Assembly: GCA_944350265.1 (NCBI GenBank)
Contig: CALVOG010000002.1
Span: forward strand, 42,567-106,566
DNA length: 64,000 nt
Direction of reading: 5' to 3'
Origin: an uncultured Clostridia bacterium
Lineage (GTDB): Bacteria > Bacillota > Clostridia > Christensenellales > UBA1242
Shown here: piece after piece, positions 1 to 25,274 of the stretch
How positions within the stretch are numbered: position 1 is the first letter of the stretch
How the letters are laid out: each line of letters begins with the position of its first letter
Translations under genes and position numbers: made by a program
The notes under the pieces: generated by a model
Told to the model about the DNA's origin: nothing
Database searches by the model: none
The model's input: only the letters and a program-made list of their open reading frames with translations

Positions 1-3000
1 TGTCAAATTCAGCATAAACCGTGTCGCCCGAAATGGTGCTACCATCAATCGTGCCACCGTTTGCGTTCAATATGATTGCATAGCGCTCAGCCGTCCACTT
101 TGCGTAAAGTGTGATATCGTCAGTTCTTATCCAACCGCCCGAAGCGTTGGTGTAGCCCGAAACGCCACTAACAAGCCTGCCGTTACTGCCAATAACAACG
201 GTGCCGTCACCAGTTGCCCAGCCCGCGAACTTATATCCATCGCGAGAAGCCGTTGGGGTTACCGCCGAGCCAGAAACCTGCTCGTGGATTCTGCCGTCAG
301 TGTAGATTGAGCCGTAAAGAGATAAGCCGTCATAGTTTGCGTATACTTTTTCGTGAGTTGCTGTGATATCGGTTGAAGTGCCTTCCTCTTTTTCCGCACT
401 CAAAGTGATTTCGCTAACCATTGGAGACCAATTAAGACTAATAGTAACAGTGGTTTCATCTGCAAGTTGTGTGAAGGCGTAGGCCATAGTGCCATTGATT
501 TCAGCACCATTACTCCCCCAATTCGCTGCATTTGTATATCTATATCCTCCTGTCGTTCCGGTGATAGTGAAGATCGCTATTATATTTTCTTCTAAATATA
601 TTGCATTTTGCCCAAACACATAACCCGTTCTGGTTGGATTTGTGCCTTTAAGTTCGGCGTAAGTTTCGCCTGTTGGAGTTGTTGAAACGCCGTTATCGGT
701 GGTGACAACGATGTCCGTGAATTTAACAGTGATTGTGTATTCGTGCGAGCCATCTGTACCATTTTCTGGGATGGTCACCGTTTGTGGGTCGGAGCCATCG
801 GCGTTCGCCACAATCACATTGAATGAGTTATAAACATTTGTGAATTTAATGTTGTAAGTGTTTTCGCTCCACTGTGCGGTGAGGGTGTTGTCGCCCACGC
901 CCATAGTGAAAGTGAAGCCAGATTGAACACTGCCGTTAAGCGTGCCAGTGCCACTGCCCGATTTTTGCCAGCCCGTGAAGGTGTAACCTCTTCTAACCGG
1001 AGTTGAAAGGTCAACCACGGTGGTGTATTCTTCATTAATCACGGTGTTTGTGGTTTCGCCGTCATACGTTCCGCCATTTGGGTCAATGGTGAGGTTATAA
1101 CTATTTAGTTCAAAAGTCATACGCACGTTAAAATCGGTTTTCATCACAAGGTTAGTTTGATTTTGATTTGATGTATTGAAGTTGTCAGGTGCAGTTGCTG
1201 GGTCACCAAACTTCCATTTAACGAATTTGTAACCACTGTTAAGCGTAACAGTTATATTGAATGAAGAGCCGTAACGAATAATATAGCGATGATGCATTTC
1301 TCCTTCATATTCTCCACTGCCTTCTATCTTGCCTAAGTCTGTAACTTTAACACCAGAAACAGAATAGGTGTCTATCGCTGGATTTTCAACATCACAGAAC
1401 TTAAACTCATAATAACGTCTATCGAAGTAGATTTTCACGGTGGTGGACTTGTCGCCATTAATATTGATTGCCGAAATTCCGCCCGCGTTATTTGCAGTTG
1501 TCGCCTCTACGTTATATTTAAAGCCGTTATATTCAAACGGTGTGCCATTAAGCGTCACGCCGAAGCCACTTGTGGTTGTGCCGAACGCCACCTTTGTGTC
1601 GGTTAAACCAGAAGCGGTTTTTGTTTCGCCGAATTTCACATAGTTATTGTCGGCAATGTTTTGTTGATAGATTTCCACGTTATATGTCACAGTTTGAGGA
1701 GTTGCCGAAACGGTGAAAGTCTTATTCGTTTTAATTTGAACGGAGGAAACGGTCGCCTCGCCATCCTTAAACACTGGGTTTGCGTAGCCCGCTTTTGGGG
1801 TTGCGCTAAGAGTGATGGTTTCGTCGTAGTAAACCTTGTAAACTCCGCCTGTTGAGCTAATTACAGTTGAACTTGCGCCCTTGACGGTGACGGAAGCAAT
1901 GCCCGTGCCAATGGTGATGGTCACGTCATACGTTCCGCGTGTGTAGTAAACATCGATAACCAAACTGCCGTCGCCCTGCACGATATAGTTGCCCTCGCCC
2001 GCCGAAGAAACAATGTCGTATTCAGCGAGTTTATAAGCGCCATATTTCGATTCAAACGCATTCATAAGCGTTTCAATGTTAATTTCCGTGCCAGCATATG
2101 CCGTTGTGGAAATGGTGTCAGCGGTAAAGTTTTCAAACGCCGTTGCAAGGTCAGTGCTACCTGCTCGCGCACCAGCAACCGATTGCACCCTGAAGTTCAC
2201 TTTGTAAGCGACAGCGCCCGCTTGCCAAATGGCATAGAGGGTGTAAGTTTCATTGTCAACTGCCGTCAAGCCAGAAACAGTTTCGCCGTTTTTAATCATT
2301 CCGTCGCCAAGACCAGCAACGTCGCCAGCAAAAGCACCTGCCGAGGTTTCTGCGTTAATCGCCCAACCAACAAAGGTGTAACCTTCCTTGCTGAAAATGC
2401 TTTCAAAGGTGTAACTTTGGTTATATTTAAGTGAAATTTCGTTATTCTTTCCAGCGATAAGGGTTGCGGTGCTACCAGGGTTATTCTCGTCATTCGCATT
2501 GAGAATCAAGGTGTAGGTATGCGCCTCCCAAACCGCATAGAGGGTGAGGGGTGAGGTGTATTGGAAGGTGATTTCCTTGCCATTTTCGCCCAAATCTTCC
2601 ACCGAGTAAAGAATTTCATTGTTATCGCCACTTCCAAGCGACCAGCCTGCGAAGGAGTAACCTGCGCGGACAAATTCCGTTCCGCCCTCGTTTGGCAGAA
2701 TGGTGTAAGTTGCGTCGAAGGTTGCGCTTGTGCCACTGACCGTCGCCTCACCGCCAGCCGTTCCGCCGTTGCCATTATAGGTCACGGTGAGCGTTTCAGG
2801 CGTCCAGCGCGCAAAGAGGGTGATTGCAAGCGTTGCATTCGTGTCGATAGTGTTAACTTTTGTGTCTTTTGTGACCTGCACTCCGTTAGTTTTAGCAGTG
2901 AACCAGCCGTTGAACGTATAGCCGGCTCTATCAGCGCCCATAAGCCCTTGTCTTGTGTTCTCGTCGGAAACGTAGAGGTCGTTAAAGGTGCCGGAGTAAG

Positions 3001-6000
3001 CAACTTTCATAATTCCGCCGTTGCTGTTAAGGTCGCCAAGAAGGAAGGTTGCCTCAGTGGAGCCGTTGCCGTCGGTTTTGTCGTTAAGGTTAAAGGTCAC
3101 CGTGACGGTGTTTGCCTCCCAAACTGCATAGAGAGTGACCGTGGCGTCTCGAACGGGGGTGAGGTTTTCAACCGGCTCCTCGTCCTTATAAACCACTCTT
3201 TTAGCAATATCCTCTGCCTTAATTGACTCAGCGGTGCCCCAGCCTCTAAAGGTGTAGCCTGGGTTTACGTATGTGTTCTTTCTAAGTGCCACCTTTCCGC
3301 CGTCATAGGTGAAAGTTTGGTTTTCCATTGTGCCGTCCACTTCCGCATCGTCTGGCGCGTTCTTTGCAAACGCAACTTGGTATTGGTTAGCCGTCCACTT
3401 TGAATACAAGGTGTGATTTTGTGCTGTGCCCACAGTTGTTGCGGACTCAACCTTGTTTTCAAAGGTTCCATCATCCAAATACCAGCCATTGAAGGTGTAA
3501 CCAGTCTTTGTTGGAGTTGGAAGAGTGCCATAGAGTTCGCCATAGCGCACCGTTCTATTTCCAATTGCGTGGTCCGCCCTAATATCGCCAACCTTCTGCA
3601 CGGACACATTCTTAAACTCAAACACTTCGCCAACGGTCCAAGTAGAAGAGTAGAATACGAAATCTGAATACTGCGAATCATTGGATGTAAATCTGATTGA
3701 AACGTTAACCCATTCGTTTGCTTGCTCTATTGTATAATTGATAGGACCACCTTGTTGTTTGCCGATTTTAATTTGGTGTGCGTGGGTAGATTTTATCTCA
3801 GCGGTCCAAACATATTCTTCTCCAACTTCTAAATCGTCAGCAACTAACCACCAGCCGGCAAAAGCATCTCCTAGGCTACTGATTGTGATTTTTGAAACTA
3901 ATTCATTATTAACTTTTGTATGCTCTTCAGTAAAACTAATCTGCTCGGTTGCACTTTCATCATTCCACTTTTGAACCAAATATGGATAAGTAACTATGTT
4001 TTCAGCATCAAAGTTGATAACATAATTCATAGGCTTCCATTGAGCGAAAAGTTCTATGTCATCAGTTATCGTGCCAATATTTTCATAGGAATAATAGGCT
4101 CCTTCGCCATTTACTTGTGTGTTCCAGCCAGCAAAAGCATAACCTTCACGCTCAGCGTATGACAAAGGTTCTGCCACGCCATAGGTTATTTCTTGTTCAA
4201 GCACAACTTCATCGCTCTTGTATATAAAGAAAGCGATTTGTGTGTTAGAGAAACTTGCGCCAATTCCACTAATACTGATTGTTGCGCTTGTTGCGCTTGA
4301 AATTGTTATTTCTTTGGAGGCAAAATAATCATTGTCGCTCGCAAAACTAGCCACAGTTGAGCCAAGAGAAATTTTAAAACTGCAAGCAAACATATTCATT
4401 GCGCCGTCAAGCACAAAGTAACCCACTTTATAAGTCCCAGCCTCAAAAGCGCCAGCAAAGTCAACGAGTCTGATATCACTTGTTGAGGTTCCATCCAGCG
4501 TGAACACATTGGTGTCGGCATCGTAGTTGATTGTCACGCCGTTTTGAGTGGTGTTCCAATCAGCGCTTCGAACGGCGTAGTTAAGCCCTCTGATGCCCGC
4601 GTTGCCTGTGCCGTAGTTTTGGTTATATTGAATGGCGTAACTGTTAACACTCCACTCGGCGGTGAGAGTGATGTTACCAAACAATCTTGCCGTGGAACTT
4701 GCGTTATCCGCGTCGGAAGAAACGGTGACGCCCTGACCTAAATCAGTGTTCGTTTGAAGCCACTTCGAGCCGTCCGCCGTGCCGTCGGAGCAAGTTGCGG
4801 TGAACTTTGTAAGCGTGTGGCCCGTGCGCAAAATATCCGTTTTTGATGGAAGCGCAAAGCCGATTTTTTGGTTAGAAACAACCTCGCCAGAGTAATCCAC
4901 CCTGCCGTATACGTTATAGTAATAGGTTTGCGATTTTCCGCCACCCGCGAACTGACCTTCGCCAGCATTCACGGTTGCGGTGTAAACAATGTAGTTATAA
5001 TTTAAGGTAATATCAAGCGAACCATCGCCAGCAACAACAAGCGAGTTGCCAGTTTTGTTGGTGGAGTAACTTGCGTATTCAAAGCCGTCCACATTCGCCT
5101 CTCCGCCCTCAACAAGCGCCTTTATGTCGTCAATTTTAACCGTGGTGCCGGTGTCGTAAGTGCTAACCTTAAAGGTTGCAAGTTGCGTGTATGAACCAGA
5201 GGTGTTTTGAATGTTAACAATCACATCGAATGGTGTTTTGTCAGCCCTCCACTGTGCAACAAGGGTGACATCGCCGTGCATATTCGCCTTGGTGGTGAAC
5301 GCATTATTTTCTAAAGCGATATTCACGCCGTCTTCAAGCGGATAAGTTTCCGCCCAGTTACCCTCGTCGTCGGTTATGGTGAAGCCGATGAGCGTGTAAC
5401 CCGCGCGCGTGATGTTGGTGCCATTTCGAAGGGTGACAGCGTTTGGATAGGTGTAAGTTTGCGTGCTGTCGCCAGCGCTTGTGAACTTACCTTCGTTTGC
5501 GTTATAGGTTATGGTGTAAGTATTCGCCTTCCACTGTGCAACAAGGGTGACATCGCCGTATTTTCCGCTAATAGGCGCGCCCTTTTTGTAGTCCACACGA
5601 ACGCCGTCCACAGTTTCGCCAGCGGTTGCCCAGTTGTTGGCAGTGCCGTCGCTGGAAATAGTCCAGCCCACAAGCGTGTAGCCCGTGCGCGAAATGTCAG
5701 CGTCGGAGTAAAGATTGAAGGTATCTTCAATGTCATATTTTTTCGTCGCCTCACTTGAAAGCGTGCCGTTGTTTGCCTCATAGGTCACGGTGTATTCAAC
5801 CGGCTCAATCACCGCCTCGATAACAACGTCGCCATAGAACCCTGTGCCAAGCGCGCCAAAGTTAAGCCCTGTTGAACTCCAGTTTGCACTCTCACCTTCT
5901 CCGCTAACAAAGGTCCAGTTTTTAATCGTGTAGCCATAGATTGTGAAGTCGTCGTTATCTAAAAGCGTCAAGTTGGTTTCAACGTTGTATGCATTCACTG

Positions 6001-9000
6001 CGGTGTAGGAGTTGTTTTGCAATTCCGTGTCGCCGTGATAAACGGTGTATTTCTCGTCAAACGTGTAGGTTATATCGTAACTAATAGGGTCAAATTGCGC
6101 AGTGAGTGTTGCGTCGGTGTTAAGCGTGAACGCTGTGTTTGGCGCAATCGTGCTTCCGTTGCCCGTTGATGCGTTTGAAACAAGCCAGCCCGTGAAGGTG
6201 TAGCCATTTGGTGTTGATGACGGAGTGAAGATTTTGTTAATGCCGTGAAATTTCTCCGCTTTTGTGGTTGTGTTAACATTGCCCTTGTTTATCACAAGTT
6301 CAATATCATAAATTTCTTTCACATAGATTGATTTTGACTCACTCTTGCTTGGCGTCCAAGTGAAGGAAATGGTGTTGCGTGCCGAACTTTCGGTTGGTTT
6401 TGCGCCCGTTGCCACCAAGTATTCGTCAGCGCCGGTTTTGGTGAGCGTCACAGTGAGCGCGGTGGCACTAAACGCCTTTGTGATGGCAAGACTGCCACCC
6501 GCGTTCAGCGTTTTTGTTTCGTCGTCGCCAGAAACCGTAACAGTGAAGTTAGTTGAGTGCGTCGCCTCACTGTTCGCGCTTGCAAAGTTGAGAGTCAAGG
6601 TATATTCTCTCGGTGTATACTTAGCAAAGAGGGTGGCGTCATTATCCACATTCCAGTTGCTCTTTAAAACACCGCTTGCATTCGTAATTAATTCATTATT
6701 AAGCGTCCAGCCGTCGAACGTGTAGCCCGTGAGGTTGGTAACCACAGGGGTAACCTCGCCAGAAACAGCATAGTCTTTTTGCTCGTTGCCCGTTCTTGTT
6801 GAGTAAATCTTATTGCTTCCATAAACAACATACAAGGTCGCGTTTGTGTTAAGCGTTGGCGACCCGCCGTTATTAATAAGAGAAGAAAGGTTTCTGTTAA
6901 GTGTCACAACATAGGTGTTTGCTTTCCAAATTGCAAAAAGGTCCACCGTGCCATTGTCAGTTGGTGTTAAGTTGGAAACTGGTTGCTTGTCGGTGTATGT
7001 TGGCGCGCTGGCACTGCTGTTTGTTGACCAGCCAAGGAAGGTGTGCCCTTCACGCGTATATGTGTTCGCGCTCAGCGCCTTTTCTTCGCCATATTTAAAC
7101 GATTGACTTTGCATTTGCGTGCCTGTTCCGCCGTTTGCGTCAAAGGTGACGGTGTAGGTGTGTGGCGTCCACGTTGCAACAAGGGTGACATTGCCAATCT
7201 TCCCCTTAACCGAAGTGCCAGCACTATACACTTCGCCCGTTTCCCACGCGAAAGTGTTGTTATGATATTCGCCCACATTCGTTTTGGTTATCCAGCCCGC
7301 AAAGGTGTAGCCCGTGCGTGTTGCACTTGCAAGGACGTTTGTGGAGTTATAGGTGTAATCAAACGAACTTGGGCTTGGCAAGGTGACATTTGTGTCGCCA
7401 GCCTCTGCCGTGTAGGTGACGGTGTAGTCATTCTCCTCCCAAACTGCGTAAAGTACTTGATTTAGCGCAATTTTATAGAAATCGCTTGTTGTCTCTTCGC
7501 TTGAAGTCACAACCTGCCCTGCCGTAAAGTCAGGTGTGGTTGCGCCACTCTCAAACGCCCAGCCCTTAAAGGTGTAGCCATCGCGGTAGATATCGCTTGA
7601 ACCTCGCGTTGTGAAGTCGGTGCCCACTTTAAGTGTGAGATGGTCGCTTGGAGAGCCGTCCTCATAGTTACCGCCGTTCGACGCGAACTCAATTTGATAG
7701 CCGTGTTCGCTGTATATTGCAGTGATTGTCACTGCCTCTTCGTCGTTAGCCGTGTTTAAAGTTGTCCAGCGCGTGAACGAGAATTTGCCGTCAGCATAGG
7801 TGATAACCTTGTTGCCAGCACTATCCTTATATCCGTCAAAGTCATAGAGGAAGCGCGTTGGAGCCTCAAGGGTCGCCTTGTTTGCGCCCGTCTTATCCGT
7901 GTAAATTTGGTCAATAGTGCCGTCAAAGGTGAAGTAATATGTGCGCTCTTTGTCATTATTTGAGAACGCGCCCTCGCCAGCATCGGCGATAACCTCAATG
8001 CGTTTTGGCGTCCAGTTCGCTTTTAAGGTTGTGAAGTTGCCACTTTTATAATTGATATCCCAATTCTTGGTGAATGTGCCGTTTCCGTTTATGTAAGTTG
8101 CGTCATTCACGCTCCAGCCAGCAAAGGTGTAGCCAGGGAGCGTTGGAATAAGGTCGTCGGCGGTAAGTTTGTTTCCGCCCACCCACGCGTCATACACATT
8201 TTGTGTGCCGTAATCAATATATAAATTCGTGCGTTCATATGTTGGTGTTGTGGACGCAGACCCTTTGTTCAAATTGATGGCAACAGGAATTCGCTTTGCT
8301 TCCCAAATTGCATAGAGAGTCTCATTTCCGCCTGTAAGTTCGCCGATATTGCCCGCGGAGTAGAACTTTCCACTGCCGTCAGCCTCGGTGTTCCAGCCGA
8401 TAAACTTATATCCCTCGCGCTTAGCAATCGGCATATATGTGTTTTCATCGTGTGTTATCGTTTGTTGGTTATTCGTAATCGGTGTGTTATAGTAAAGATA
8501 GAATCTAATTTGGTAGTTAGTAAAGGTTGGCAAATCTCCACCAGGAGTGTGTGAGATGTACATCACAAAGTTTTCTTTGTTCAGTTGCTCTTCGGTCATA
8601 TTTTTTTCATATTCATGGGCATAATTTTTTAAATGAGAACCAGGACCGTCAAATTTCACCATATCCGTCCATGAGCCATTATCATCATTTATAACAACAG
8701 CCCCTATATAATTCTTCGCCGTATTTTTTACGCTTCCAGAGAGAACATCATAACCAAAGGTGTATGCACCTGAAGCAAACATGTTGTTTGGTAGATCTAA
8801 ATCTACGAGACCTATGGAAAGGTTTAAATCAGAGTTACGTGTGCCATTTAGCGTATAAACATTCGTTTGTGGATTATATGACACTACTACTCCTAGCCTC
8901 TCAAGAACCCACTCTTCGCCACTCCAATCTTCATTTGTGCGAAGCGCGCCGTAGTTTAATCCTGTCACGGTTGCGCCGTCCGCATTTGCGTCATAGGTTA

Positions 9001-12000
9001 CAATGGTTGTGTTTGCCGTCCAGTGAGCATAGAGGGTGGTATCTTGCGCCTTATCCCAAGTTCTTGCACTTGTGCCGTCGGTCTTATAATACTGCACTCC
9101 GCCTTCCGCTTTATCCCAAACGCCGGCAAAAGCATAGCCATTGCGCGTTGGAACGCTGATTTCAGGCATAGCGGAAGCATAGGTCGCCTTAACCGTGATT
9201 GTTTCACCGTCAGCGAAAGCGCCCCCGTTTGCATCAATTATAACATCATATGTATTTGGCGTCCATTGTGCCGTTAAGGTGACAGGGCCATACATTGAGA
9301 ACACCTTGAAAGACGCGCCCTCGGTGTATTCCTTGTTATTCTCCCAATTTCCGCCCGACACGTTCGAAGCAAGCCACCCGCGAAGTGTGTAGCCCTCTCT
9401 TGTGACATCCTCTTTCCCTAAAAGCGAGAATGCTTTGCTTGGGCTGTATGTCACCGTGGTTGCGCCCGAATACGAGCCACTATTAAGGTTATAGGTGATT
9501 TTGTTTGTGTCAGCCTCCTCCCAAATTGCATAGAAGGTGGCGTCACTTGGTGTGTTCCAAGCGTTCAAAAGTCCGCCTTGATTGTTGGTAATTGGCGTGC
9601 CGTTTTCGCTTGTTGCCCAGCCTTTAAACACATAACCATTTAAAGATGCCACAATCGTGCCATCGCCACTGCCCGCAACCTCGCTCGATTTTGAGGTGTA
9701 AAGAGTGGTTGTGCCGTAAACAACATAGATTGTGTTATTGTCTGGCGCTGGGGTGAGCGTCACACTGCCAATTCCGTTGTTGGTTGTCACTGGCGAATTG
9801 GTGTTAAGTGTGATGGTGTAAAGAAGTGGGTCAGCATCAGCAACAAGGGTGACGTTGCCATACTTGCCGGTGATTTCGGTGTTGTGAGCGTATTCAGTGC
9901 CAGCCTCCCACGCATAACCGCCTGCAACAAGTGCGCCCACGTTCGTGGAAGTGGTCCAGTGGTTGATTTGATAGCCCGCTAAGGTTGCCGTTTCGCCAAG
10001 GTCAAACGTGGTGTCAACATAATATTTTTGCGTGCCGATTGTCTTTCCACCAAATTGATAGGTGATGGTATACTCACCCTTTGTCCATTGTGCAAAAAGG
10101 GTGTCTCCGCCGTCAGTTGTCCAAAGCGTGTCAACTGCCGTGCCGTTAGCGTTATAATATTTTGTTCCGCCGTTTTGAGCGTCATAATAACCATTAAATG
10201 TATATCCGTCTCGCTTTGGAAGGTTTGCTTCGGCAATGTTTGGCAGTTTTTCGTTATAAGTTGCCGTGACCTCTTTCGTGTCATTATCATCAAACGTTCC
10301 GCCGTTCGGGTCTAAGGTTATTTTATATTCATTTGGCGTCCAGCCCGCATACATAACTGCGTCCGCATTTGAGGTGTATGCTTGCCTTTCCTCATAAGCC
10401 GTTCCGCTTGCCGAATTAAGGTGCCATTTTTTAAACGCATAGCCAGTGCGATCAAAGCCGTTGTCAGCAAGGTTCACCGACTGCCCATAAACCTTATAAG
10501 AGGAAGTGGTGCTCCCGCTTGTTGCCCCGTTGCCATTATATGAGATTTCATATATCTTATAAACATATACATTAATAACAAAGGTGTTGCTTGAAATCGC
10601 GTCGAAATTGGTGAACGCAACTCTATGATTGGTAACACCATAACCATTTGCAACGCCACTTGCGTCCATAGACGGATTTGCCGAAAGCGCCGTCATTGAA
10701 AGATAGTAGTCCGCTGGCGCGTCAAGTGCGATTGTTAAGGTTTGCCCGAATTCAACGTTAGAAATGTCTGTCGTTGTTTGTGCGTTCGAAAGTGTTGGAG
10801 TCACAACTCCGCCGTTCACTGAAATGCTTGAAGTGATTGAGAATGTGTCGGCGTCGCCATAGAACTTGTTCACTTTAAGTTGCACGGTGTAAGAAATAGG
10901 GTCCCACTGAGCAACAAGGGTGACTTCGTTTGCAACATCCCAAACGTGCGCGCTTGCGCCTGATTCATTATAATAAGTCACATTGTTGTATTCATATCCA
11001 GCAAAGGTATACCCTTCACGCGTTGGCTTTGTTGCCGTTGGCATTTGCGCGCCGTAGGTTGCCTCAACGCTTGCCGAACCGCCTGTGCCGTTATTGCGGT
11101 CAAGCGTCACAGTGTAGGTCTTTGGTTGCCAAATTGCATAAACATTTGCCGTTCTGCTGTCGTCAGACGCCGTCCACGTGCCGTTCACCTTGCCTTGCGC
11201 TGTGATTTGGCAGGCGCTTGCCGATGTGGCACTTCTATTCGTCGACCAGCCTAAGAACTCGTAACCAGCAAGCGTTGCCTTTGGCGTTCCGCTCAAATTG
11301 GTGGAACCATAGTTCACCGTGAGCGTGTTGCTTGTGCCAAGTCCGCTTGAAGTTGCTGTGCCAAGCACTTTATTGCCCTTTGTGTCACGCGAAGCACTGT
11401 CACTTGCGTCATTAAGGTGGAAAGTTATTGTCACATTGAACGCATTGTATCTCGCATAAAGAGTGGTGTTTGCGGTGGTAAACGTTAAATGATTGTTTTC
11501 CTCCATAAACGCACCCTCGGCATTAATTATTTGCTTGCCTTCCGCGCTCGACTGTGTGGTGTAATAACCAGCGAAATCGTTACCCACTTTATCTGGTATG
11601 TATGCGGTTGCGTCTCTAAGCGTGCTTGTGTTGCCCGCCTCGGCGTCAGTCTCGGTTGCATACCACCCGTGTTCATATCTTAAATATAAGGTCTTGGTGG
11701 TTTCAGCGCCAATCTTTCCGCCTTGCAAGTTGAGAGTAACGCTGTAAACTTCAGGCTCCCATTGCGCGTAAAGGGTGATTGCGCCCTGGGTTGTGAGATT
11801 TTTAACGCTTTGTCCGTTTGTGTAAGCGGTTCCTCCGCCATTCGCCTGTGTGTTCCAGCCCACAAATTCATAACCCGTTCTTAGATATTTATTATCTGAT
11901 AATCTTTGCGCAACATCATATTTAAAAGTTTGGTTTGCCATACTTCCGCTTGTGCTACGATTGCCGTTGAAGATAACGGTGTAATTATTTGGGTCCCACT

Positions 12001-13360
12001 GCGCCGTCAATGTTGGAGAGCCGTATTTGCCCTCAACGCTTGCGCCCGAAGTGAAGGTTTCGCCCAAAGTCCAGTTACCGCTCGCCGTTGTAACCTTCCA
12101 AAACTTGGCTTGTGCCGTGTGGCCAGGATATGTGATTGAAGAAGATGCTGGCAAAGCCACTGGCGTCTTTATATTTTGATTAGTTAATGTTTTACTAGTA
12201 TTATTACTACTATCTTCACCGCCACCATAATTGAGGGTAACAGTATAGTTTTGAAGTTCCCACGTTGCGTAAAGAGTTGTGCTTCCATTCACCGTCACCG
12301 ATGTTCCAACTTTTTCTTCACTATCTATATAATACTTCCAGCCTGTTTGCCTATAGCCGAGATTCGAAAGGAGATATGGTTCGGACAAGTTGATAGTTTG
12401 CGAACCAGTCAATTCAAGCACGATAGCGCCTGACTTAGCTTCCTCTTGTTGTGAGTCAGCGTAAAGAGTGACAAAGTAATTGTTTGTGGAGGTATTCTTC
12501 AATGAATATGCCTTTGGATATGGATAAAGATTGGTTCCAAGAACATCTCCGCTAGAACCTATCACGTTGTCAAATGCAAAAATCCAGCCCGTCTTTTTAG
12601 CTTCATCGTCGTCGCCTAGAAGACCGAACGACCAAGCGCCATTTTCCCAAAGTTTGGTTGTTGCGTCAGTTGTGCCAATAGCATATTCCTCGGAGGCGTA
12701 AAAGCCAACGCGGTATGCAAGCCCCACATTAACTTCACCTGTCGGACTTCCCAACTTGTTCGTGCTGGAAACGTTTGGAGTTGCAGTGTCTCCCGCAGTT
12801 GACGGACTAAATCCGCGAAGCCCCTCCGCCGTGTCATAATAGAAGCCTTCGTAGCTAAAACTATCTAGCTCCGTTGGGATTTCCACGCCCGCACCATTCT
12901 TCGCAAAGAATATGGAGTCGTTGATTATCAAAGACGATGGAGTGGCTCCATTCGCGAACATGCTAATCCCACTCGTCGCGTCACCCGTGTAAACGAGAAT
13001 CACGTTGTTGAGAACCACGTTTTTGGTGTTCCAACTAGAATCAAACGCCGATGCGGTGTTAAACTCAATAAGCGTGTTGCTAATTTGAACATTGCCAAGA
13101 GTTCCAATGGCGCTCGTTAGCGTTTGACCGCTGGTGACTTGCGACGCCCCATTTAAAAAATATTCGTCGCTGATAAACACAGTGTCGCTATCTTGGTTAA
13201 TAGATGTGGCTGACACTTCGTCATCAACGACGGTCGCTGTTGAGCCTATGCTTGACCAAGGCTGACTCATAACTGAGTTAAGCCCGACGCCAAAGATTGA
13301 GGCAAAGACCATAAGCCCCGTCATAAGCATCACGTTCATTTTTCTTTTTAACTTGTCCAT
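1..13360 (-). CDS. Giant secreted surface protein, first 4,453 codons (the ORF runs off the window at position 1). It has a signal peptide, a ~330-aa non-repeat region, then >=30 Listeria-Bacteroides-type repeats (Flg_new/TIGR02543-like) interrupted by non-repeat modules.
   Basis: ATG at 13360-13358 is preceded by GGAG (13370-13367). The N-terminus MDKLKRKMNVMLMTGLMVFASIFGVGLNSVMS looks like a signal peptide. The minus frame with codon first bases at coordinates = 1 mod 3 stayed open in by-eye translation (register checked at 13360, 12837, 8962, 4585, 988). Motifs R-x-G-Y-T-F-x-G-W and L-Y-A-x-W recur every ~70-90 aa. Every minus-strand track ORF in 1-13360 lies in another frame (top = 0 mod 3), as expected if the real frame has no in-window stop. 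Confidence 0.85.
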   Translation of the reverse strand, partial: MDKLKRKMNVMLMTGLMVFASIFGVGLNSVMSQPWSSIGSTATVVDDEVSATSINQDSDTVFISDEYFLNGASQVTSGQTLTSAIGTLGNVQISNTLIEFNTASAFDSSWNTKNVVLNNVILVYTGDATSGISMFANGATPSSLIINDSIFFAKNGAGVEIPTELDSFSYEGFYYDTAEGLRGFSPSTAGDTATPNVSSTNKLGSPTGEVNVGLAYRVGFYASEEYAIGTTDATTKLWENGAWSFGLLGDDDEAKKTGWIFAFDNVIGSSGDVLGTNLYPYPKAYSLKNTSTNNYFVTLYADSQQEEAKSGAIVLELTGSQTINLSEPYLLSNLGYRQTGWKYYIDSEEKVGTSVTVNGSTTLYATWELQNYTVTLNYGGGEDSSNNTSKTLTNQNIKTPVALPASSSITYPGHTAQAKFWKVTTASGNWTLGETFTSGASVEGKYGSPTLTAQWDPNNYTVIFNGNRSTSGSMANQTFKYDVAQRLSDNKYLRTGYEFVGWNTQANGGGTAYTNGQSVKNLTTQGAITLYAQWEPEVYSVTLNLQGGKIGAETTKTLYLRYEHGWYATETDAEAGNTSTLRDATAYIPDKVGNDFAGYYTTQSSAEGKQIINAEGAFMEENNHLTFTTANTTLYARYNAFNVTITFHLNDASDSASRDTKGNKVLGTATSSGLGTSNTLTVNYGSTNLSGTPKATLAGYEFLGWSTNRSATSASACQITAQGKVNGTWTASDDSRTANVYAIWQPKTYTVTLDRNNGTGGSASVEATYGAQMPTATKPTREGYTFAGYEYNNVTYYNESGASAHVWDVANEVTLVAQWDPISYTVQLKVNKFYGDADTFSITSSISVNGGVVTPTLSNAQTTTDISNVEFGQTLTIALDAPADYYLSMTALSANPSMDASGVANGYGVTNHRVAFTNFDAISSNTFVINVYVYKIYEISYNGNGATSGSTTSSYKVYGQSVNLADNGFDRTGYAFKKWHLNSASGTAYEERQAYTSNADAVMYAGWTPNEYKITLDPNGGTFDDNDTKEVTATYNEKLPNIAEANLPKRDGYTFNGYYDAQNGGTKYYNANGTAVDTLWTTDGGDTLFAQWTKGEYTITYQFGGKTIGTQKYYVDTTFDLGETATLAGYQINHWTTSTNVGALVAGGYAWEAGTEYAHNTEITGKYGNVTLVADADPLLYTITLNTNSPVTTNNGIGSVTLTPAPDNNTIYVVYGTTTLYTSKSSEVAGSGDGTIVASLNGYVFKGWATSENGTPITNNQGGLLNAWNTPSDATFYAIWEEADTNKITYNLNSGSYSGATTVTYSPSKAFSLLGKEDVTREGYTLRGWLASNVSGGNWENNKEYTEGASFKVFSMYGPVTLTAQWTPNTYDVIIDANGGAFADGETITVKATYASAMPEISVPTRNGYAFAGVWDKAEGGVQYYKTDGTSARTWDKAQDTTLYAHWTANTTIVTYDANADGATVTGLNYGALRTNEDWSGEEWVLERLGVVVSYNPQTNVYTLNGTRNSDLNLSIGLVDLDLPNNMFASGAYTFGYDVLSGSVKNTAKNYIGAVVINDDNGSWTDMVKFDGPGSHLKNYAHEYEKNMTEEQLNKENFVMYISHTPGGDLPTFTNYQIRFYLYYNTPITNNQQTITHDENTYMPIAKREGYKFIGWNTEADGSGKFYSAGNIGELTGGNETLYAIWEAKRIPVAINLNKGSASTTPTYERTNLYIDYGTQNVYDAWVGGNKLTADDLIPTLPGYTFAGWSVNDATYINGNGTFTKNWDINYKSGNFTTLKANWTPKRIEVIADAGEGAFSNNDKERTYYFTFDGTIDQIYTDKTGANKATLEAPTRFLYDFDGYKDSAGNKVITYADGKFSFTRWTTLNTANDEEAVTITAIYSEHGYQIEFASNGGNYEDGSPSDHLTLKVGTDFTTRGSSDIYRDGYTFKGWAFESGATTPDFTAGQVVTSSEETTSDFYKIALNQVLYAVWEENDYTVTYTAEAGDTNVTLPSPSSFDYTYNSTNVLASATRTGYTFAGWITKTNVGEYHNNTFAWETGEVYSAGTSVKGKIGNVTLVATWTPHTYTVTFDANGGTGTQMQSQSFKYGEEKALSANTYTREGHTFLGWSTNSSASAPTYTDKQPVSNLTPTDNGTVDLFAIWKANTYVVTLNRNLSSLINNGGSPTLNTNATLYVVYGSNKIYSTRTGNEQKDYAVSGEVTPVVTNLTGYTFDGWTLNNELITNASGVLKSNWNVDNDATLFAKYTPREYTLTLNFASANSEATHSTNFTVTVSGDDETKTLNAGGSLAITKAFSATALTVTLTKTGADEYLVATGAKPTESSARNTISFTWTPSKSESKSIYVKEIYDIELVINKGNVNTTTKAEKFHGINKIFTPSSTPNGYTFTGWLVSNASTGNGSTIAPNTAFTLNTDATLTAQFDPISYDITYTFDEKYTVYHGDTELQNNSYTAVNAYNVETNLTLLDNDDFTIYGYTIKNWTFVSGEGESANWSSTGLNFGALGTGFYGDVVIEAVIEPVEYTVTYEANNGTLSSEATKKYDIEDTFNLYSDADISRTGYTLVGWTISSDGTANNWATAGETVDGVRVDYKKGAPISGKYGDVTLVAQWKANTYTITYNANEGKFTSAGDSTQTYTYPNAVTLRNGTNITRAGYTLIGFTITDDEGNWAETYPLEDGVNIALENNAFTTKANMHGDVTLVAQWRADKTPFDVIVNIQNTSGSYTQLATFKVSTYDTGTTVKIDDIKALVEGGEANVDGFEYASYSTNKTGNSLVVAGDGSLDITLNYNYIVYTATVNAGEGQFAGGGKSQTYYYNVYGRVDYSGEVVSNQKIGFALPSKTDILRTGHTLTKFTATCSDGTADGSKWLQTNTDLGQGVTVSSDADNASSTARLFGNITLTAEWSVNSYAIQYNQNYGTGNAGIRGLNYAVRSADWNTTQNGVTINYDADTNVFTLDGTSTSDIRLVDFAGAFEAGTYKVGYFVLDGAMNMFACSFKISLGSTVASFASDNDYFASKEITISSATSATISISGIGASFSNTQIAFFIYKSDEVVLEQEITYGVAEPLSYAEREGYAFAGWNTQVNGEGAYYSYENIGTITDDIELFAQWKPMNYVINFDAENIVTYPYLVQKWNDESATEQISFTEEHTKVNNELVSKITISSLGDAFAGWWLVADDLEVGEEYVWTAEIKSTHAHQIKIGKQQGGPINYTIEQANEWVNVSIRFTSNDSQYSDFVFYSSTWTVGEVFEFKNVSVQKVGDIRADHAIGNRTVRYGELYGTLPTPTKTGYTFNGWYLDDGTFENKVESATTVGTAQNHTLYSKWTANQYQVAFAKNAPDDAEVDGTMENQTFTYDGGKVALRKNTYVNPGYTFRGWGTAESIKAEDIAKRVVYKDEEPVENLTPVRDATVTLYAVWEANTVTVTFNLNDKTDGNGSTEATFLLGDLNSNGGIMKVAYSGTFNDLYVSDENTRQGLMGADRAGYTFNGWFTAKTNGVQVTKDTKVNTIDTNATLAITLFARWTPETLTVTYNGNGGTAGGEATVSGTSATFDATYTILPNEGGTEFVRAGYSFAGWSLGSGDNNEILYSVEDLGENGKEITFQYTSPLTLYAVWEAHTYTLILNANDENNPGSTATLIAGKNNEISLKYNQSYTFESIFSKEGYTFVGWAINAETSAGAFAGDVAGLGDGMIKNGETVSGLTAVDNETYTLYAIWQAGAVAYKVNFRVQSVAGARAGSTDLATAFENFTADTISTTAYAGTEINIETLMNAFESKYGAYKLAEYDIVSSAGEGNYIVQGDGSLVIDVYYTRGTYDVTITIGTGIASVTVKGASSTVISSTGGVYKVYYDETITLSATPKAGYANPVFKDGEATVSSVQIKTNKTFTVSATPQTVTYNVEIYQQNIADNNYVKFGETKTASGLTDTKVAFGTTTSGFGVTLNGTPFEYNGFKYNVEATTANNAGGISAININGDKSTTVKIYFDRRYYEFKFCDVENPAIDTYSVSGVKVTDLGKIEGSGEYEGEMHHRYIIRYGSSFNITVTLNSGYKFVKWKFGDPATAPDNFNTSNQNQTNLVMKTDFNVRMTFELNSYNLTIDPNGGTYDGETTNTVINEEYTTVVDLSTPVRRGYTFTGWQKSGSGTGTLNGSVQSGFTFTMGVGDNTLTAQWSENTYNIKFTNVYNSFNVIVANADGSDPQTVTIPENGTDGSHEYTITVKFTDIVVTTDNGVSTTPTGETYAELKGTNPTRTGYVFGQNAIYLEENIIAIFTITGTTGGYRYTNAANWGSNGAEINGTMAYAFTQLADETTVTISLNWSPMVSEITLSAEKEEGTSTDITATHEKVYANYDGLSLYGSIYTDGRIHEQVSGSAVTPTASRDGYKFAGWATGDGTVVIGSNGRLVSGVSGYTNASGGWIRTDDITLYAKWTAERYAIILNANGGTIDGSTISGDTVYAEFD

Positions 13361-13408
13361 ATTTTTCTCCTTACGCTAAGCGGTTTCCCGCCCTTTGTAT
13401 TCAAAAAT

Positions 13409-13438
13409 ATTATAATATATATGCGCAACTAATGTCAA
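13409..13438 (-). promoter_or_regulatory. Sigma-A-type promoter candidate for the giant gene
   Basis: The minus strand reads TTGACA (13438-13433), an 18-nt spacer, then TATAAT (13414-13409), about 45 nt upstream of the ATG. Confidence 0.6.
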
Positions 13439-13539: not shown

Positions 13540-14327
13540 TTTTACGAACGAAAAAATGTTTGCCATAAAAATTATTTTAAAAATAAAAAATTCGCCCAAA
13601 ATTATTAATTTTTCGCAAAAATTAAGAAAAAATGCACTTTTTTTCAATTTTTTTTCGATTTTTTAATGATTTTTTTGCGTTTTTTATTTTTCGCAAATTT
13701 TTGGTGTTTTATTTTTCCTATTTTTTTATCTTTTTAATCCCTTCTTTTTTAAAAAAGTTTTCCACAATTCCACATTTTTTCTTTCCTTTCCTGCCCAGTT
13801 TTTTCTCTTTTTATTTTCATAACCACACCACACTTCTCGCAAATTAGGATTCTTAAAAGCAACGTCCACACCATTTTCTTTCCTCTCTTTTTTATTTTTT
13901 CTCTATAACCGCACCACTTTTTTTTCACAAACCGCACCACTTTTTTCATAAATTAAAGTCTCCAAAAAACGCACCATTTTTTCACGCTACATAAAAGTCT
14001 CACTTAGCAAACTGTTTTCCAAAACGGGGTAAAGTTTTGTTATTAACACTCCTACAACCTCTCACTTCGCGCTTTCAGCGTGAATATATTTTCGAACTTT
14101 TACTATCTCATTATTTCAAAATTTTCTAGCCATACACAAAATTTTTTCTACCGCATAGGCTGTAAATATACAAATCGCTCGTTTAACCAAGATTTTGTTT
14201 TGGTTTTTATCCACTTGGCTATATCCGCGTAAGCCACTTGCTTTAACAAACCAGATGCGGTTTCTTTCACATCGGCAAAACGCACACAATTCCACCCATA
14301 AGCAAAATTTACACAAAAGAGGTCTCA

Positions 14328-18947: not shown

Positions 18948-19910
18948 TTATTGACCGTTTTTTCTTCTATTGTAATTTTGTAGGTCTTGCAACGTCATTT
19001 CTTTTTTGTTAAGAAGTTCCAATAGTTCAGCAATCCTATCTAAATCATCTCTAGTATAATAGTCAATGTAAATTCTTCCTTTATTATCATTGCCCACTGC
19101 ACTGACCTTTGTTGCAAAAGTTTTTTGCATTTGTATGATTAATTCTTTTAGTTCCAACGACTGCTCTGGAATTATAATATGTCGTCTTTGAGGATTTTCT
19201 AGATTCTTTACTGCTTTTTCCAGTTCTCTAACACTTATACTTTTATTCACCACAAGTTGCGCAAGCTTTATCTGTTGATTTTTATCTTCGATAACCACCA
19301 AGCATCTCGCGTGCCCTGCTGAAAGTTTCCCTTCTTCAACAAGTTTAAGAACATCTGGGTAGAGCGTTAGAAGTCTGAGTGTATTCGCCACGCTTGAGCG
19401 ACTCTTCCCAATTCTATCCGCAACCGTTTCTTGCGTAAGCCCATACTCATCCATAAGCTCTTTTATGGCTTTTGCCGCTTCAACAGGATTCAAATCTTCC
19501 CTTTGCAAGTTTTCAATAATGCTGATTTCTTTAACCTGCTTATCGGTATACTTCCTAACCACCGCCGGCACCGTTTTCAGCCCGCAAATATTAGCAGCGC
19601 GCCAACGCCTCTCGCCCGCAATAATCATATAGGAACCATCTCCCATATCGTTCACCACAATAGGCTGAACAATTCCGTGCAATTTAATTGAAGCAGCAAG
19701 TTCGTTTAGTGCTTCTTCGTCGAAATTTTTTCGCGGTTGATTAGGATTAGGTTTCACCTTATCAATCGCAATTTCACTAACTCCACCACTAACTGTCACT
19801 TTCGCTTGTGGTTCAGGCGCTTTTTTTGTTATATTTTCATAACTATCATCTTTGTATACGCCAAAAAGCGCATCCAAACCTCTTCCTAATCCCTTTTTAT
19901 TATTTAACAT
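18948..19910 (-). CDS. parB: Chromosome partitioning protein ParB/Spo0J
   Basis: N-terminus MLNNKKGLGRGLDALFG. ParB box IVQPIVV...IIAGERRWRAA. HTH region LTQETVADRIGKSRSSVANTLRLL. Confidence 0.92.
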   Translation of the reverse strand: MLNNKKGLGRGLDALFGVYKDDSYENITKKAPEPQAKVTVSGGVSEIAIDKVKPNPNQPRKNFDEEALNELAASIKLHGIVQPIVVNDMGDGSYMIIAGERRWRAANICGLKTVPAVVRKYTDKQVKEISIIENLQREDLNPVEAAKAIKELMDEYGLTQETVADRIGKSRSSVANTLRLLTLYPDVLKLVEEGKLSAGHARCLVVIEDKNQQIKLAQLVVNKSISVRELEKAVKNLENPQRRHIIIPEQSLELKELIIQMQKTFATKVSAVGNDNKGRIYIDYYTRDDLDRIAELLELLNKKEMTLQDLQNYNRRKNGQ

Positions 19911-19913
19911 TTT

Positions 19914-20729
19914 TTAATCCTCCGAAAATCTTATTTTTCTTGTTTTAGAAATTCTTTTAAAAGGAGTCCCGCTTCGCTTTAAAATCTCCTCAGCCAAACT
20001 CAAATAAGCCTCAGCACCCTTCGAATTAGCGTCATATAGCGCCACCGGCAACCCGTGGCTTGGCGCTTCCGCCAGTCGCACATTTCTTGGGATTGTGGTC
20101 ACATACACCTTCTTGCTGAAGAACTTTATAATTTCGTTGCTAACCTGATTTGTCAAGTTGTAACGCTTATCTTTCATTGTCATAACCACGCCCTCGATGT
20201 CGATGTTCGGGTTAAGATATTCCTTCACTAATTTTATCGTGTTCATCAGTTGCGTCAACCCTTCCAGCGCGAAGAATTCACACTGAATTGGAATGATAAC
20301 ACTGTCGGTTGCCGTCAAAGCATTCACCGTGATAAGCCCTAGTGAAGGCGGGCAGTCGATAAGTATGAAATCATAACTATCTTTAATCTCTGCCAGCAAA
20401 TTCTTAATAATTTTTTCTCTTTGTGGGATTTGAATAAGTTCAACCTCAGCCCCCGCCAAATCCACTGTTGATGGTATAATAAAGAGGTTTTCGACGATTG
20501 TTGGTTTAATCACATCGTCAAATGTTCCCTCGCCGTCAATTAGGTCGTAAATAGTCATCAAATCCTTGCTTTTTCTTATTCCCACACCGCTTGTTGCATT
20601 ACCTTGCGGGTCCAAATCCAAAAGCAAAATTTTCTTGCCCATCATTGCCATATACGTGGCAACATTCACGCAAGTCGTGGTCTTACCAACCCCACCCTTT
20701 TGATTTGCAAATGCGATAATTTTTCCCAT
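19914..20729 (-). CDS. parA: Chromosome partitioning ATPase ParA/Soj
   Basis: Deviant Walker A ANQKGGVGKTTT, then LLLDLDPQGNAT and IDCPPSLG. It sits 3 nt upstream of parB. Confidence 0.92.
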   Translation of the reverse strand: MGKIIAFANQKGGVGKTTTCVNVATYMAMMGKKILLLDLDPQGNATSGVGIRKSKDLMTIYDLIDGEGTFDDVIKPTIVENLFIIPSTVDLAGAEVELIQIPQREKIIKNLLAEIKDSYDFILIDCPPSLGLITVNALTATDSVIIPIQCEFFALEGLTQLMNTIKLVKEYLNPNIDIEGVVMTMKDKRYNLTNQVSNEIIKFFSKKVYVTTIPRNVRLAEAPSHGLPVALYDANSKGAEAYLSLAEEILKRSGTPFKRISKTRKIRFSED

Positions 20730-21159
20730 AGTAACTTCCTTTGTTACAATTATACATTAAAAATGAAAAAAAATAAAGTATATAAGTCACTTTTTTTGAA
20801 AAACTTTTGCTATCTTCAAATCGAATACAACAAATATGTTTTATAAAACGTTCAAAAAACAAAAAAACACGAAAAAACTTATAAAAATAGCAAAAAAAGT
20901 GAATTTATTTAATAAAAATTCATTATATTGCATTAAAAATAAAATTTTATTTAATGATTAACTTAGTATTTTCTATATAATTTTCAATTATTGCAATGAA
21001 AAAAATTTTTTACACAATCACGCGCTTTACTGATGATTTAAAATAACACACTATGTTAAAGTCAATAATAAAAAAATAATCACTCTCTTTTCTCAACACT
21101 TATTTCAACAACTAATCTTTTCACAACTTCAAAAACAACCTTCTTTTTCTTCATCCTTA

Positions 21160-21188
21160 TTGCAAAATACGCAAATTAGTGGTATAAT
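21160..21188 (+). promoter_or_regulatory. Near-consensus promoter abutting the mnmE start codon
   Basis: TTGCAA (21160-21165), a 17-nt spacer, then TGg-TATAAT (21180-21188). The ATG lies 8 nt after the -10 and there is no Shine-Dalgarno sequence. Confidence 0.55.
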
Positions 21189-21195
21189 AAAATGT

Positions 21196-22521: not shown

Positions 22522-22522
22522 T

Positions 22523-24379: not shown

Positions 24380-24381
24380 AT

Positions 24382-25238: not shown

Positions 25239-25274
25239 AATAAATTACAACCAAAAATTCAAGTATTTTTATTT

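What the first reader, a model, noticed from the sequence alone, without database searches (positions are those of the whole stretch)
1..13360. Giant (>4,453 codon) Listeria-Bacteroides-repeat surface protein gene hidden from the ORF track
A single open frame on the minus strand starts at 13360 with a signal peptide and is still open at position 1. The window therefore holds only part of a protein of at least 4,453 aa. By eye I count about 33 copies of the G-Y-T-F-x-G-W / L-Y-A-x-W repeat typical of Flg_new/TIGR02543 domains. These fall into at least two subtypes. One longer subtype ends in K-Y-G-D/N-V-T-L-V-A-x-W and recurs almost verbatim at the nucleotide level near 5240, 5530, 7170, 9840 and 10900. 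The gene sits about 14 kb from oriC and is co-oriented with leftward replication. Its size, extreme modularity and origin-proximal position make it the dominant accessory feature of the window.
Basis: partly seen in the sequence, partly recalled or inferred. Interest (0 to 1): 0.6.

Follow-up and report, generated by a model that had tools for sequence, protein, structure and literature searches.

The report
Giant repeat adhesin gene, one-third visible
The window holds the first third of a real, intact gene of about 38 kb that encodes a secreted surface protein of about 12,800 amino acids, built mostly from Listeria-Bacteroides repeats, in a small-genome gut Clostridia bacterium; this is a large example of a protein type already known from gut bacteria.

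Summary
The minus-strand frame from 13360 to the window edge has 4,453 codons and no stop. It starts with a consensus promoter, a ribosome-binding site and a Sec-type signal peptide. It scores far above threshold for Flg_new (PF09479) and TIGR02543.

The window shows only about 35% of the gene. Eight independent assemblies of the same species, about 96% nucleotide identity, carry the gene complete at the same locus, with products of 12,768-12,810 aa. So it is neither an assembly artefact nor a pseudogene. DnaN is 96% identical to that of Candidatus Caccovivens faecavium (Christensenellales, family UBA1242, genome about 1.1 Mb), so the gene would take up roughly 3.5% of the genome.

Codon usage matches the neighbours, and every conspecific contig that reaches the locus carries the gene. 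It is therefore a native, conserved gene, not an accessory one.

The repeats are old and diverged: 25-45% amino-acid identity and 60-80% nucleotide identity. Only a 14-nt string recurs exactly.

Between strains the protein changes much faster than its neighbours (dN/dS about 0.2-0.4 against 0-0.09). One cassette of about 130 aa exists in at least four deeply diverged alleles.

The best reading is a giant fibrillar adhesin. The C-terminal anchor and the ligand are unknown. It is a new member of a known kind.

The parts
2..13360 (-). 5' 35% of the giant CDS (codons 1-4453; open at the window edge)
   Evidence: 0 stops in 4,453 codons. Orthologues are 12,768-12,810 aa and complete inside their contigs. 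The aligned N-terminal parts (first 1,338 aa for L086, about 3,000 aa for the contigs) are collinear and 91-93% identical.
13409..13438 (-). Sigma-70-type promoter, TTGACA-18 nt-TATAAT
   Evidence: 12 of 12 consensus matches, about 48 nt upstream of the ATG. This is a consensus match only; activity was not shown.
13367..13372 (-). Ribosome-binding site AAGGAG, 6 nt before the ATG
   Evidence: Read directly from the sequence.
13262..13360 (-). Sec-type signal peptide (aa 1-33)
   Evidence: Basic n-region KLKRK, a hydrophobic core of about 19 aa (the only Kyte-Doolittle window above 1.6 in the protein), and no lipobox Cys. Almost invariant in orthologues and in P0001.
12326..13261 (-). Lineage-specific N-terminal domain (aa 34-345), fold unknown
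   Evidence: No Pfam or PDB sequence match. Only one homologue turned up (P0001, 71% identity) in the search of 5.8 billion proteins, and P0001 was the only one of the 150 listed hits in the 1.84 billion representatives to cover this domain. The AF2 model is unusable (pLDDT 41). It is the most conserved part between strains.
9020..12325 (-). First block of Flg_new repeats (aa 346-1447), with one unassigned insert at aa 820-933
   Evidence: Pfam and own-HMM domain maps. A profile of 19 repeats hits the InlB B-repeat structure 2Y5P at E=8e-5.
8528..9019 (-). Non-Flg_new all-beta module (aa 1448-1611) placed in front of a Flg_new unit
   Evidence: No Pfam hit. It has a paralogue at aa 2904-3047 with 36% identity. 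A low-confidence AF2 model (pLDDT 54) is all-beta, and its weak Foldseek hits are to CBM and jelly-roll lectin folds.
8561..8953 (-). Hypervariable allelic cassette (aa about 1470-1600)
   Evidence: Alleles are 37-50% identical in protein and 53-61% in DNA, with saturated dS, inside flanks that are 95-96% identical. At least 4 allele classes exist among conspecific contigs.
4220..4651 (-). Second copy of the all-beta module (aa 2904-3047)
   Evidence: Internal BLAST E=2.7e-11 against aa 1442-1551; alignment A5.
3581..4036 (-). Third inserted module (aa 3109-3260), more distant
   Evidence: Aligns in the same position relative to its Flg_new unit. No Pfam hit.
1112..2224 (-). Run of non-Flg_new beta-rich modules plus Flg_new_2 (aa 3713-4083)
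   Evidence: Flg_new_2 E=1.3e-7 at the C-terminal end; the rest is unassigned. The same module type alternates with Flg_new repeats in P0220.
5256..5269 (+). One of five exact copies of GCAACAAGGGTGAC (also at 5538, 7176, 9840 and 10911), which encodes the V-T-L-V-A end of the longer repeat subtype
   Evidence: 5 exact matches against 0 expected.

Best explanation
Shown:
- The window contains the promoter, ribosome-binding site, signal peptide and first 4,453 codons of a native, intact chromosomal gene.
- In strains of the same species the gene encodes 12,768-12,810 aa.
- The visible protein is acidic (pI 4.5), almost Cys-free and rich in Thr, Gly, Asn and Tyr.
- Its layout is a unique domain of about 310 aa after the signal peptide. 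A long chain of diverged Flg_new (InlB B-repeat type) modules follows, with at least 24 confirmed independently. Other beta-rich modules are interspersed among them.
- Between strains it stays open and collinear, but it changes much faster than its neighbours.
- One cassette of about 130 aa exists as several ancient alleles.

Inferred:
- The protein is exported by Sec and held at the cell surface by a C-terminal anchor that is not visible here. Two related Flg_new giants among the fetched loci, one of them labelled Christensenellaceae, end in a transmembrane helix.
- The Flg_new chain forms a long, stiff stalk. This stalk displays the N-terminal domain and the inserted jelly-roll-like modules as binding heads.
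- The protein therefore acts as a fibrillar adhesin towards a gut ligand: a host glycan, a food particle or a partner cell.
- The host bacterium belongs to a family with genomes of about 1 Mb that is proposed to depend on other cells. Attachment would matter to it, which fits the investment of about 3.5% of the genome and a consensus promoter.
For: - Open frame and start signals.
- Flg_new/TIGR02543 membership. Link to the InlB B-repeat structure.
- Eight complete orthologues of 12,768-12,810 aa in independent assemblies, and four copies cut by contig ends. Collinearity at 91-93% aa identity.
- Native codon usage.
- dN/dS of 0.22-0.42 against 0-0.09 in six neighbouring genes at a similar dS.
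- Hypervariable cassette.
- Six contigs from different samples are 100% identical over 3,020 aa, so the gene is stable.
- Organism: DnaN is 96% identical to that of Candidatus Caccovivens faecavium. That species is placed in family UBA1242 with a 1.1 Mb genome (PMC8035907). UBA1242 is described as genome-reduced and probably partner-dependent (PMC12306168).
- Flg_new proteins are regarded as gut adhesin-like proteins (PMC9723798).
- Gut Clostridia proteins of 10,000-30,000 aa with this repeat have been noted before (bioRxiv 10.1101/2023.11.21.568195).
Against: - No anchor, ligand or expression data exist.
- The last 8,300 aa were not seen, so catalytic or toxin domains there cannot be excluded.
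- The signal peptide was judged by inspection only.
- Both AF2 models are of low confidence (pLDDT 41 and 54), so the fold of the N-terminal domain and of the inserts is not established.
- Adhesion by Flg_new domains is mostly an annotation-level inference in the literature. Even for InlB, the binding partner of the B-repeat is not settled.
- The genome size of the window's own organism is inferred from a relative.
Confidence: 0.7

Rival explanations
1. Assembly artefact or decaying pseudogene: the long frame comes from misassembled repeats, or it is a dead remnant.
For: Several short-read contigs break inside the gene at window 10667-11877. The window itself is truncated.
Against: Eight independent assemblies contain the whole gene with nearly the same length. 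Internal repeats are only 60-80% identical in DNA, with no tandem array. There are no stops in 4,453 codons, dN/dS is below 0.45, and codon usage is native.
Confidence: 0.02
2. A released or loosely bound coat or matrix protein. It would be secreted but not anchored, forming a fibrous layer or extracellular matrix rather than a specific adhesin.
For: A signal peptide is present. No anchor is seen in the window, and no sortase gene lies in the 64 kb. The protein is highly repetitive and acidic.
Against: The window covers only a third of the protein, so a missing anchor means little. Two related giants (L085, labelled Christensenellaceae, and L054) end in a transmembrane helix. The hypervariable cassette and the conserved tip domain suggest specific recognition.
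Confidence: 0.12
3. A glycan-harvesting scaffold. The inserted jelly-roll modules would be carbohydrate-binding modules that tether the cell to dietary polysaccharide, with enzymes possibly encoded further downstream.
For: Weak Foldseek hits of the insert model are dominated by CBM22, CBM16, CBM35, CBM4 and TNF-like lectins. A faint CBM_4_9 hit (E=0.06) falls in another unassigned insert, aa 2245-2350.
Against: The model is poor (pLDDT 54), and no fold hit reaches E<=0.001 or a target-normalised TM-score above 0.5. No glycoside hydrolase or dockerin was detected in 4,453 aa. UBA1242 genomes are reported to lack standard sugar transporters and parts of glycolysis.
Confidence: 0.1
4. A delivery vehicle for a C-terminal toxin or effector, that is, a polymorphic-toxin-like giant protein used against competitors or prey.
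For: Giant proteins of predatory bacteria have been linked to attack on other cells. The C-terminal two-thirds were not seen. The allelic cassette shows strain-level diversification.
Against: No toxin, RHS, LXG or peptidase domain occurs in the visible third. The variable cassette is internal rather than C-terminal. No immunity-like gene was seen, although the relevant flank lies outside the window.
Confidence: 0.05

Closest known systems
Giant (10,000-30,000 aa) predicted proteins of gut Clostridia with Listeria-Bacteroides repeats (West-Roberts et al., bioRxiv 10.1101/2023.11.21.568195)
   Same: Class Clostridia and a gut or faecal metagenome source. Length above 10,000 aa (orthologues 12,768-12,810 aa). 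Flg_new as the main repeat. A presumed binding function.
   Different: That paper treats them in a single paragraph, without locus, strain or domain-level analysis. Here the host is a lineage with a genome of about 1 Mb (UBA1242). The gene sits 13-15 kb from oriC, has a lineage-specific N-terminal domain and carries an allelic hypervariable cassette. The many transmembrane regions and SecA-like domains reported for the Omnitrophota giants are not seen in the first 4,453 aa.
InlB B-repeat (PDB 2Y5P/2Y5Q), the structural prototype of Flg_new
   Same: A profile of 19 repeats from this protein matches the B-repeat at E=8e-5, with the same G-Y-x-F-x-G-W and L-Y-A-x-W motifs.
   Different: InlB has a single B-repeat between an LRR internalin domain and GW modules. 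This protein has dozens of repeats, no LRR and no GW modules. The NCBIfam internalin models score far below their cut-offs.
Multi-repeat Flg_new adhesin-like proteins of gut bacteria and archaea (Methanomassiliicoccales, Methanimicrococcus; PMC9723798)
   Same: Secreted, Flg_new-rich, host-gut associated and fast-evolving. All are interpreted as adhesins.
   Different: Most related hits in the protein search are 1,000-6,800 aa, and those organisms often carry many copies per genome. Here a single gene is two to ten times longer.
Other giant Flg_new proteins recovered here, for example L085 (Christensenellaceae, 3,669 aa, C-terminal transmembrane helix), L030 (Erysipelothrix, LPXTG) and Bacteroidales proteins with T9SS-type C-termini
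   Same: The same repeat chain and mixed modules, at 21-44% identity to the window protein.
   Different: Each has its own anchor type and N-terminus. None shares the N-terminal domain or approaches 12,800 aa.

Membership tests
Flg_new / Listeria-Bacteroides repeat proteins (PF09479, TIGR02543) | Score above the curated cut-off for PF09479 | tested here: met
   380.8 bits against a cut-off of 27, with 18 stretches. 24 of 44 separate segments match on their own.
Flg_new / Listeria-Bacteroides repeat proteins (PF09479, TIGR02543) | Score above the curated cut-off for TIGR02543 | tested here: met
   241.3 bits against a cut-off of 20.95, with 10 stretches.
Flg_new / Listeria-Bacteroides repeat proteins (PF09479, TIGR02543) | Sequence relationship to the solved InlB B-repeat | tested here: met
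   The profile of 19 repeats hits 2Y5P_A at E=8.2e-5 and five further InlB chains.
Flg_new / Listeria-Bacteroides repeat proteins (PF09479, TIGR02543) | Beta-grasp fold of the repeat | not tested
The fold is inferred from the sequence match.
Class 1 internalins (InlA, InlH/InlC2) | Whole-protein match to the NCBIfam internalin models, plus an LRR domain | tested here: not met
   NF033188 scores 55 bits against a cut-off of 1050, and NF033189 scores 39 against 1600. Only the repeat part matches, and there is no LRR Pfam hit.
Giant bacterial proteins above 10,000 aa (gut Clostridia type) | A single uninterrupted CDS above 10,000 codons | tested here: met
   Not visible in the window itself, which holds 4,453 codons. 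Eight conspecific orthologues of 12,768-12,810 aa lie wholly inside their contigs.
Sec-exported protein | N-terminal signal peptide with n, h and c regions | tested here: inconclusive
   All three regions are present by inspection and by hydropathy. No dedicated predictor was available.
Anchored Gram-positive surface proteins (LPXTG, SLH, choline-binding or C-terminal transmembrane helix) | C-terminal sorting or anchoring signal | not testable with these tools
   The C-terminus lies about 25 kb beyond the window. Every route to the full-length sequence failed.
Carbohydrate-binding modules / jelly-roll lectins (the inserted modules) | Significant sequence or fold match to a CBM family | tested here: inconclusive
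   No Pfam hit for the three modules. The AF2 model has pLDDT 54, and Foldseek's best hits are CBM and lectin folds at E of 1e-3 to 2e-2 with target-normalised TM-score of at most 0.5.

The most novel reading that the evidence does not exclude
The 12,800-aa protein is the attachment organ of a partner-dependent Clostridia lineage (UBA1242 / Ca. Caccovivens) with a genome of about 1 Mb. The cell would use it to hold on to a specific host or microbial partner from which it draws metabolites. The swappable hypervariable cassette, and perhaps further cassettes in the unseen two-thirds, would set partner or ligand specificity from strain to strain. Published MAG-based descriptions of this family may have missed the gene, because draft contigs often break at it.
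Probability: 0.25. Interest if true: 0.7.

Novelty: new member of a known kind. Interest (0 to 1): 0.45.

Why it matters
The gene is probably the largest in a very small genome, taking about 3.5% of roughly 1.1 Mb. It is conserved in every strain examined, sits next to the replication origin behind a consensus promoter, and evolves fast at the protein level. The UBA1242 family has been proposed, from metabolic gaps alone, to live off other cells. A giant surface fibre with an allelic recognition cassette is a concrete, testable candidate for how such a cell attaches.

There is also a practical point. Draft assemblies often break at this gene. Nine of the conspecific contigs examined end inside the gene, and one NCBI MAG contig stops before reaching it. 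Gene catalogues built from such drafts can therefore miss it or split it.

Tried and rejected
1. A protein search with the whole 4,453-aa query timed out.

2. Attempts to reach the C-terminus all failed.
- The GTDB genome scan and the metagenome scan, both with the last 400 aa, returned only relatives at 21-44% identity.
- Word-index protein searches with the N-terminal 340 aa, the last 741 aa and aa 3713-3990 found only P0001 (71% identity), the short fragment P0219 (92% identity, chimeric tail) and distant proteins.
- The search of 1.84 billion representatives found 29,162 related proteins but no orthologue.
- The full-length proteins are known only as gene-table entries.

3. AF2 on the N-terminal domain gave pLDDT 41 and was not used.

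With window paralogues only it gave pLDDT 54. I treat the resulting fold hits as hints only.

5. Horizontal transfer as the reason for the higher G+C was rejected. The excess lies in GC2, not GC3, and synonymous codon usage matches the housekeeping genes.

6. Recent tandem duplication or repeat collapse was rejected.

7. Rfam found only two tRNAs in the window.

8. phmmer of the whole protein against PDB sequences found nothing. A profile of the repeats was needed to reach InlB.

9. A diversity-generating retroelement as the source of the variable cassette was considered unlikely. The alleles differ by indels and wholesale divergence, including saturated synonymous sites. No reverse transcriptase turned up among the window's larger ORFs that were scanned, but this was not searched for formally.
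Full report
**1. The observation**

Translating the reverse complement from 13360 gives 4,453 codons without a stop. The neighbouring frames have 157-386 stops. The mechanical ORF list omits this frame only because it ignores ORFs that run off the source.

The ATG at 13360 is the first start after an in-frame TAG six codons upstream. An AAGGAG site precedes it by 6 nt. A perfect TTGACA-18-TATAAT match lies at 13438-13409 on the minus strand.

The first 33 residues look like a Sec signal peptide: a basic n-region, a hydrophobic core of about 19 residues and no lipobox cysteine. This is the only strongly hydrophobic stretch in the 4,453 aa.

Pfam gives Flg_new at E=1.7e-116 with 18 stretches, plus Flg_new_2. 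NCBIfam gives TIGR02543 at E=4.6e-73. I cut the protein into 44 segments. 24 of them match Flg_new and 6 match Flg_new_2 on their own. An HMM trained on the protein's own repeats finds roughly 30-35 copies.

A profile of 19 repeats hits the crystal structure of the InlB B-repeat (2Y5P) at E=8e-5.

'Almost verbatim' applies only to that short string. Whole repeats are 60-80% identical in DNA and 25-45% in protein, and there is no tandem DNA array.

The origin claim holds. The neighbours are ZIP, tRNA-Ser, rubrerythrin, parB, parA, mnmE, mnmG, rsmG, recF, dnaA and dnaN. The GC-skew minimum lies at 26-28 kb. Eight DnaA boxes cluster at 28793-28951.

**2. What it really is: one third of a gene of about 38 kb**

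Exact-protein look-ups of the neighbouring ParB and ZIP proteins found many metagenome contigs that are 94-98% identical to the window in DNA.

In eight of them the gene at this position is called complete, inside the contig:
- 12,768 aa (L086)
- 12,774 aa (L181)
- 12,784 aa (L178)
- 12,787 aa (L176)
- 12,805 aa (L177, L182, L184)
- 12,810 aa (L179)

From the reported record ranges I checked that each gene ends well inside its contig. Four more copies (2,762, 5,890, 7,758 and 8,119 aa) are cut by contig ends. Five short contigs break inside the gene at window 10667-11877.

The first 1,338-3,020 residues of these orthologues are collinear with the window protein and 91-93% identical. The frame is therefore a real gene.

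**3. Organism and native status**

The window's DnaN is 96% identical to HIT62638.1 of Candidatus Caccovivens faecavium. This genus is placed in Christensenellales, family UBA1242. The type genome is 1.1 Mb at 34% G+C (PMC8035907). A 38.4-kb gene would be about 3.5% of such a genome. This figure is an inference, because the window organism's own genome size is unknown.

The gene's G+C (0.47 against about 0.35-0.45 for neighbouring genes) comes from second codon positions: GC2 is 0.46 against about 0.30, which reflects the Thr, Gly, Ala and Ser-rich composition. GC3 and synonymous codon choice match the housekeeping genes.

All twelve conspecific contigs that reach the locus carry the gene there. 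Taken together, this makes it a native, conserved gene rather than an accessory island.

**4. Anatomy of the visible third**

- After the signal peptide comes a domain of about 310 aa with no Pfam or PDB match. Essentially one homologue exists in billions of proteins: P0001, at 71% identity. Its AF2 model was unusable. It is the best-conserved part between strains.
- A chain of Flg_new units follows, in at least two subtypes. The longer subtype ends in G-K-Y-G-x-V-T-L-V-A-x-W.
- The chain is interrupted by unassigned beta-rich modules at aa 820-933, 2249-2346, 2705-2790, 3713-4083 and 4165-4299.
- Three related modules of about 150 aa (aa 1448-1611, 2904-3047 and 3109-3260) each sit directly in front of a Flg_new unit.
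- A low-confidence model of the first of these modules is all-beta. Its weak fold matches are mostly carbohydrate-binding modules and jelly-roll lectins. I treat this as a hint only.

**5. Evolution within the species**

Against two strains, the six flanking genes are 98-100% identical in protein, with dN/dS of 0-0.09. The giant gene at a similar dS (about 0.1) has dN about 0.03-0.05 and dN/dS of 0.22-0.42. It is therefore under purifying selection, but much looser or partly diversifying selection, as is usual for exposed surface proteins.

Residues about 1470-1600 (window 8561-8953) form a sharply bounded cassette. Alleles there are only 37-50% identical in protein and 53-61% in DNA, with saturated synonymous divergence and indels. 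At least four allele classes occur among the strains. These look like old alleles that are maintained or exchanged by recombination.

Six contigs from different samples are identical over 3,020 aa, so the gene is not scrambled at high frequency.

**6. Likely function**

The shown facts fit a Sec-exported, very long fibrillar surface protein. A stalk of beta-grasp-type Flg_new modules would present a conserved distal N-terminal domain and several inserted binding-type modules. One of those modules varies between strains.

Adhesion is inferred from three lines:
- the general view of Flg_new proteins as gut adhesin-like proteins (PMC9723798);
- the architecture;
- the evolutionary pattern.

The anchor is unknown. 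Related giants found in the genome scan use whichever anchor suits their host: a C-terminal transmembrane helix in a Christensenellaceae protein, LPXTG in Erysipelothrix, SLH domains, or T9SS-type C-termini in Bacteroidales.

UBA1242 bacteria have been described as metabolically crippled and probably dependent on other cells (PMC12306168). That paper does not mention this gene. This makes attachment to a partner or host an attractive but untested role.

**7. Comparison with what is known**

Giant Clostridia proteins of 10,000-30,000 aa from mammalian gut metagenomes that carry the Listeria-Bacteroides repeat have already been noted (bioRxiv 10.1101/2023.11.21.568195). The representative library holds 29,162 related proteins, many of 2,000-6,800 aa. 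The finding is therefore a new, well-documented member of a known kind.

It is not an internalin. There is no LRR domain, and the internalin models score far below their cut-offs.

Four things are new here: the host lineage, the lineage-specific N-terminal domain, the gene's conservation and length stability across strains, and the allelic cassette.

**8. Verdict**

The size is understated, 'accessory' is wrong, and 'near-verbatim repeats' is overstated. Interest is moderate. The feature is striking in size and sits in an interesting organism, but it belongs to a recognised class, and its function and C-terminus remain unresolved.

Noticed in passing
window 8561-8953 (aa about 1470-1600 of the giant protein); L176, L177, L180 at the same position: A sharply bounded hypervariable cassette. 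There are at least four allele classes at 37-50% aa and 53-61% nt identity, with saturated dS and indels, inside flanks that are 95-96% identical. It looks like old alleles kept or exchanged by recombination in a putative binding module.
   Followed up: partly
window 13895-13947 and 13809-13831 (intergenic, upstream of the giant gene): A 23-nt unit (GTGGTGCGGTT plus an A-run on the gene's strand) repeated 2.3 times in tandem, with one dispersed copy. It lies in a 970-bp A/T-rich spacer. Alignments to the conspecific contigs examined overlap or break here (window 13888-13923), which suggests copy-number variation. It may be a regulatory or binding-site array.
   Followed up: partly
window 28793-28951, and 26373-27380: Eight DnaA-box matches cluster between dnaA and dnaN. 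The spacer of about 1 kb upstream of dnaA is part of the most AT-rich 2-kb block of the window (G+C 0.30). This fits a bipartite Firmicutes-type oriC.
   Followed up: partly
window 18948-30162, 31078-32403, 47016-47795: Unusual gene order around the origin. mnmE-mnmG-rsmG lie on the plus strand to the left of dnaA, head-on to the leftward fork. recF is divergent from dnaA instead of following dnaN. yidC and jag lie to the right of the origin.
   Followed up: no
L087 5246-7954 (conspecific contig, between mnmE and parA): One strain carries an insertion that is absent from the window. Its called genes include ones with PDDEXK_4, WYL and DnaB_C domains. This may be a small mobile or defence-type island.
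   Followed up: no
P0219 (ENA, 1,873-nt contig): A fragment 92% identical to aa 3698-3830 of the giant protein that then switches to unrelated sequence. It is probably a chimeric short-read contig.
   Followed up: no
window 44233-45111 (-) and 32499-34085 (+): A protein made of eight DUF4116 repeats (E=3e-131), and a 528-aa protein with a weak Fic/DOC match. Neither is explained.
   Followed up: no
window 2561-3226, 6345-6725, 7043-7465, 8764-9159 (+): ORFs of 126-221 aa on the opposite strand inside the giant gene. They are most likely shadow ORFs of the repeat-rich coding strand rather than genes.
   Followed up: no
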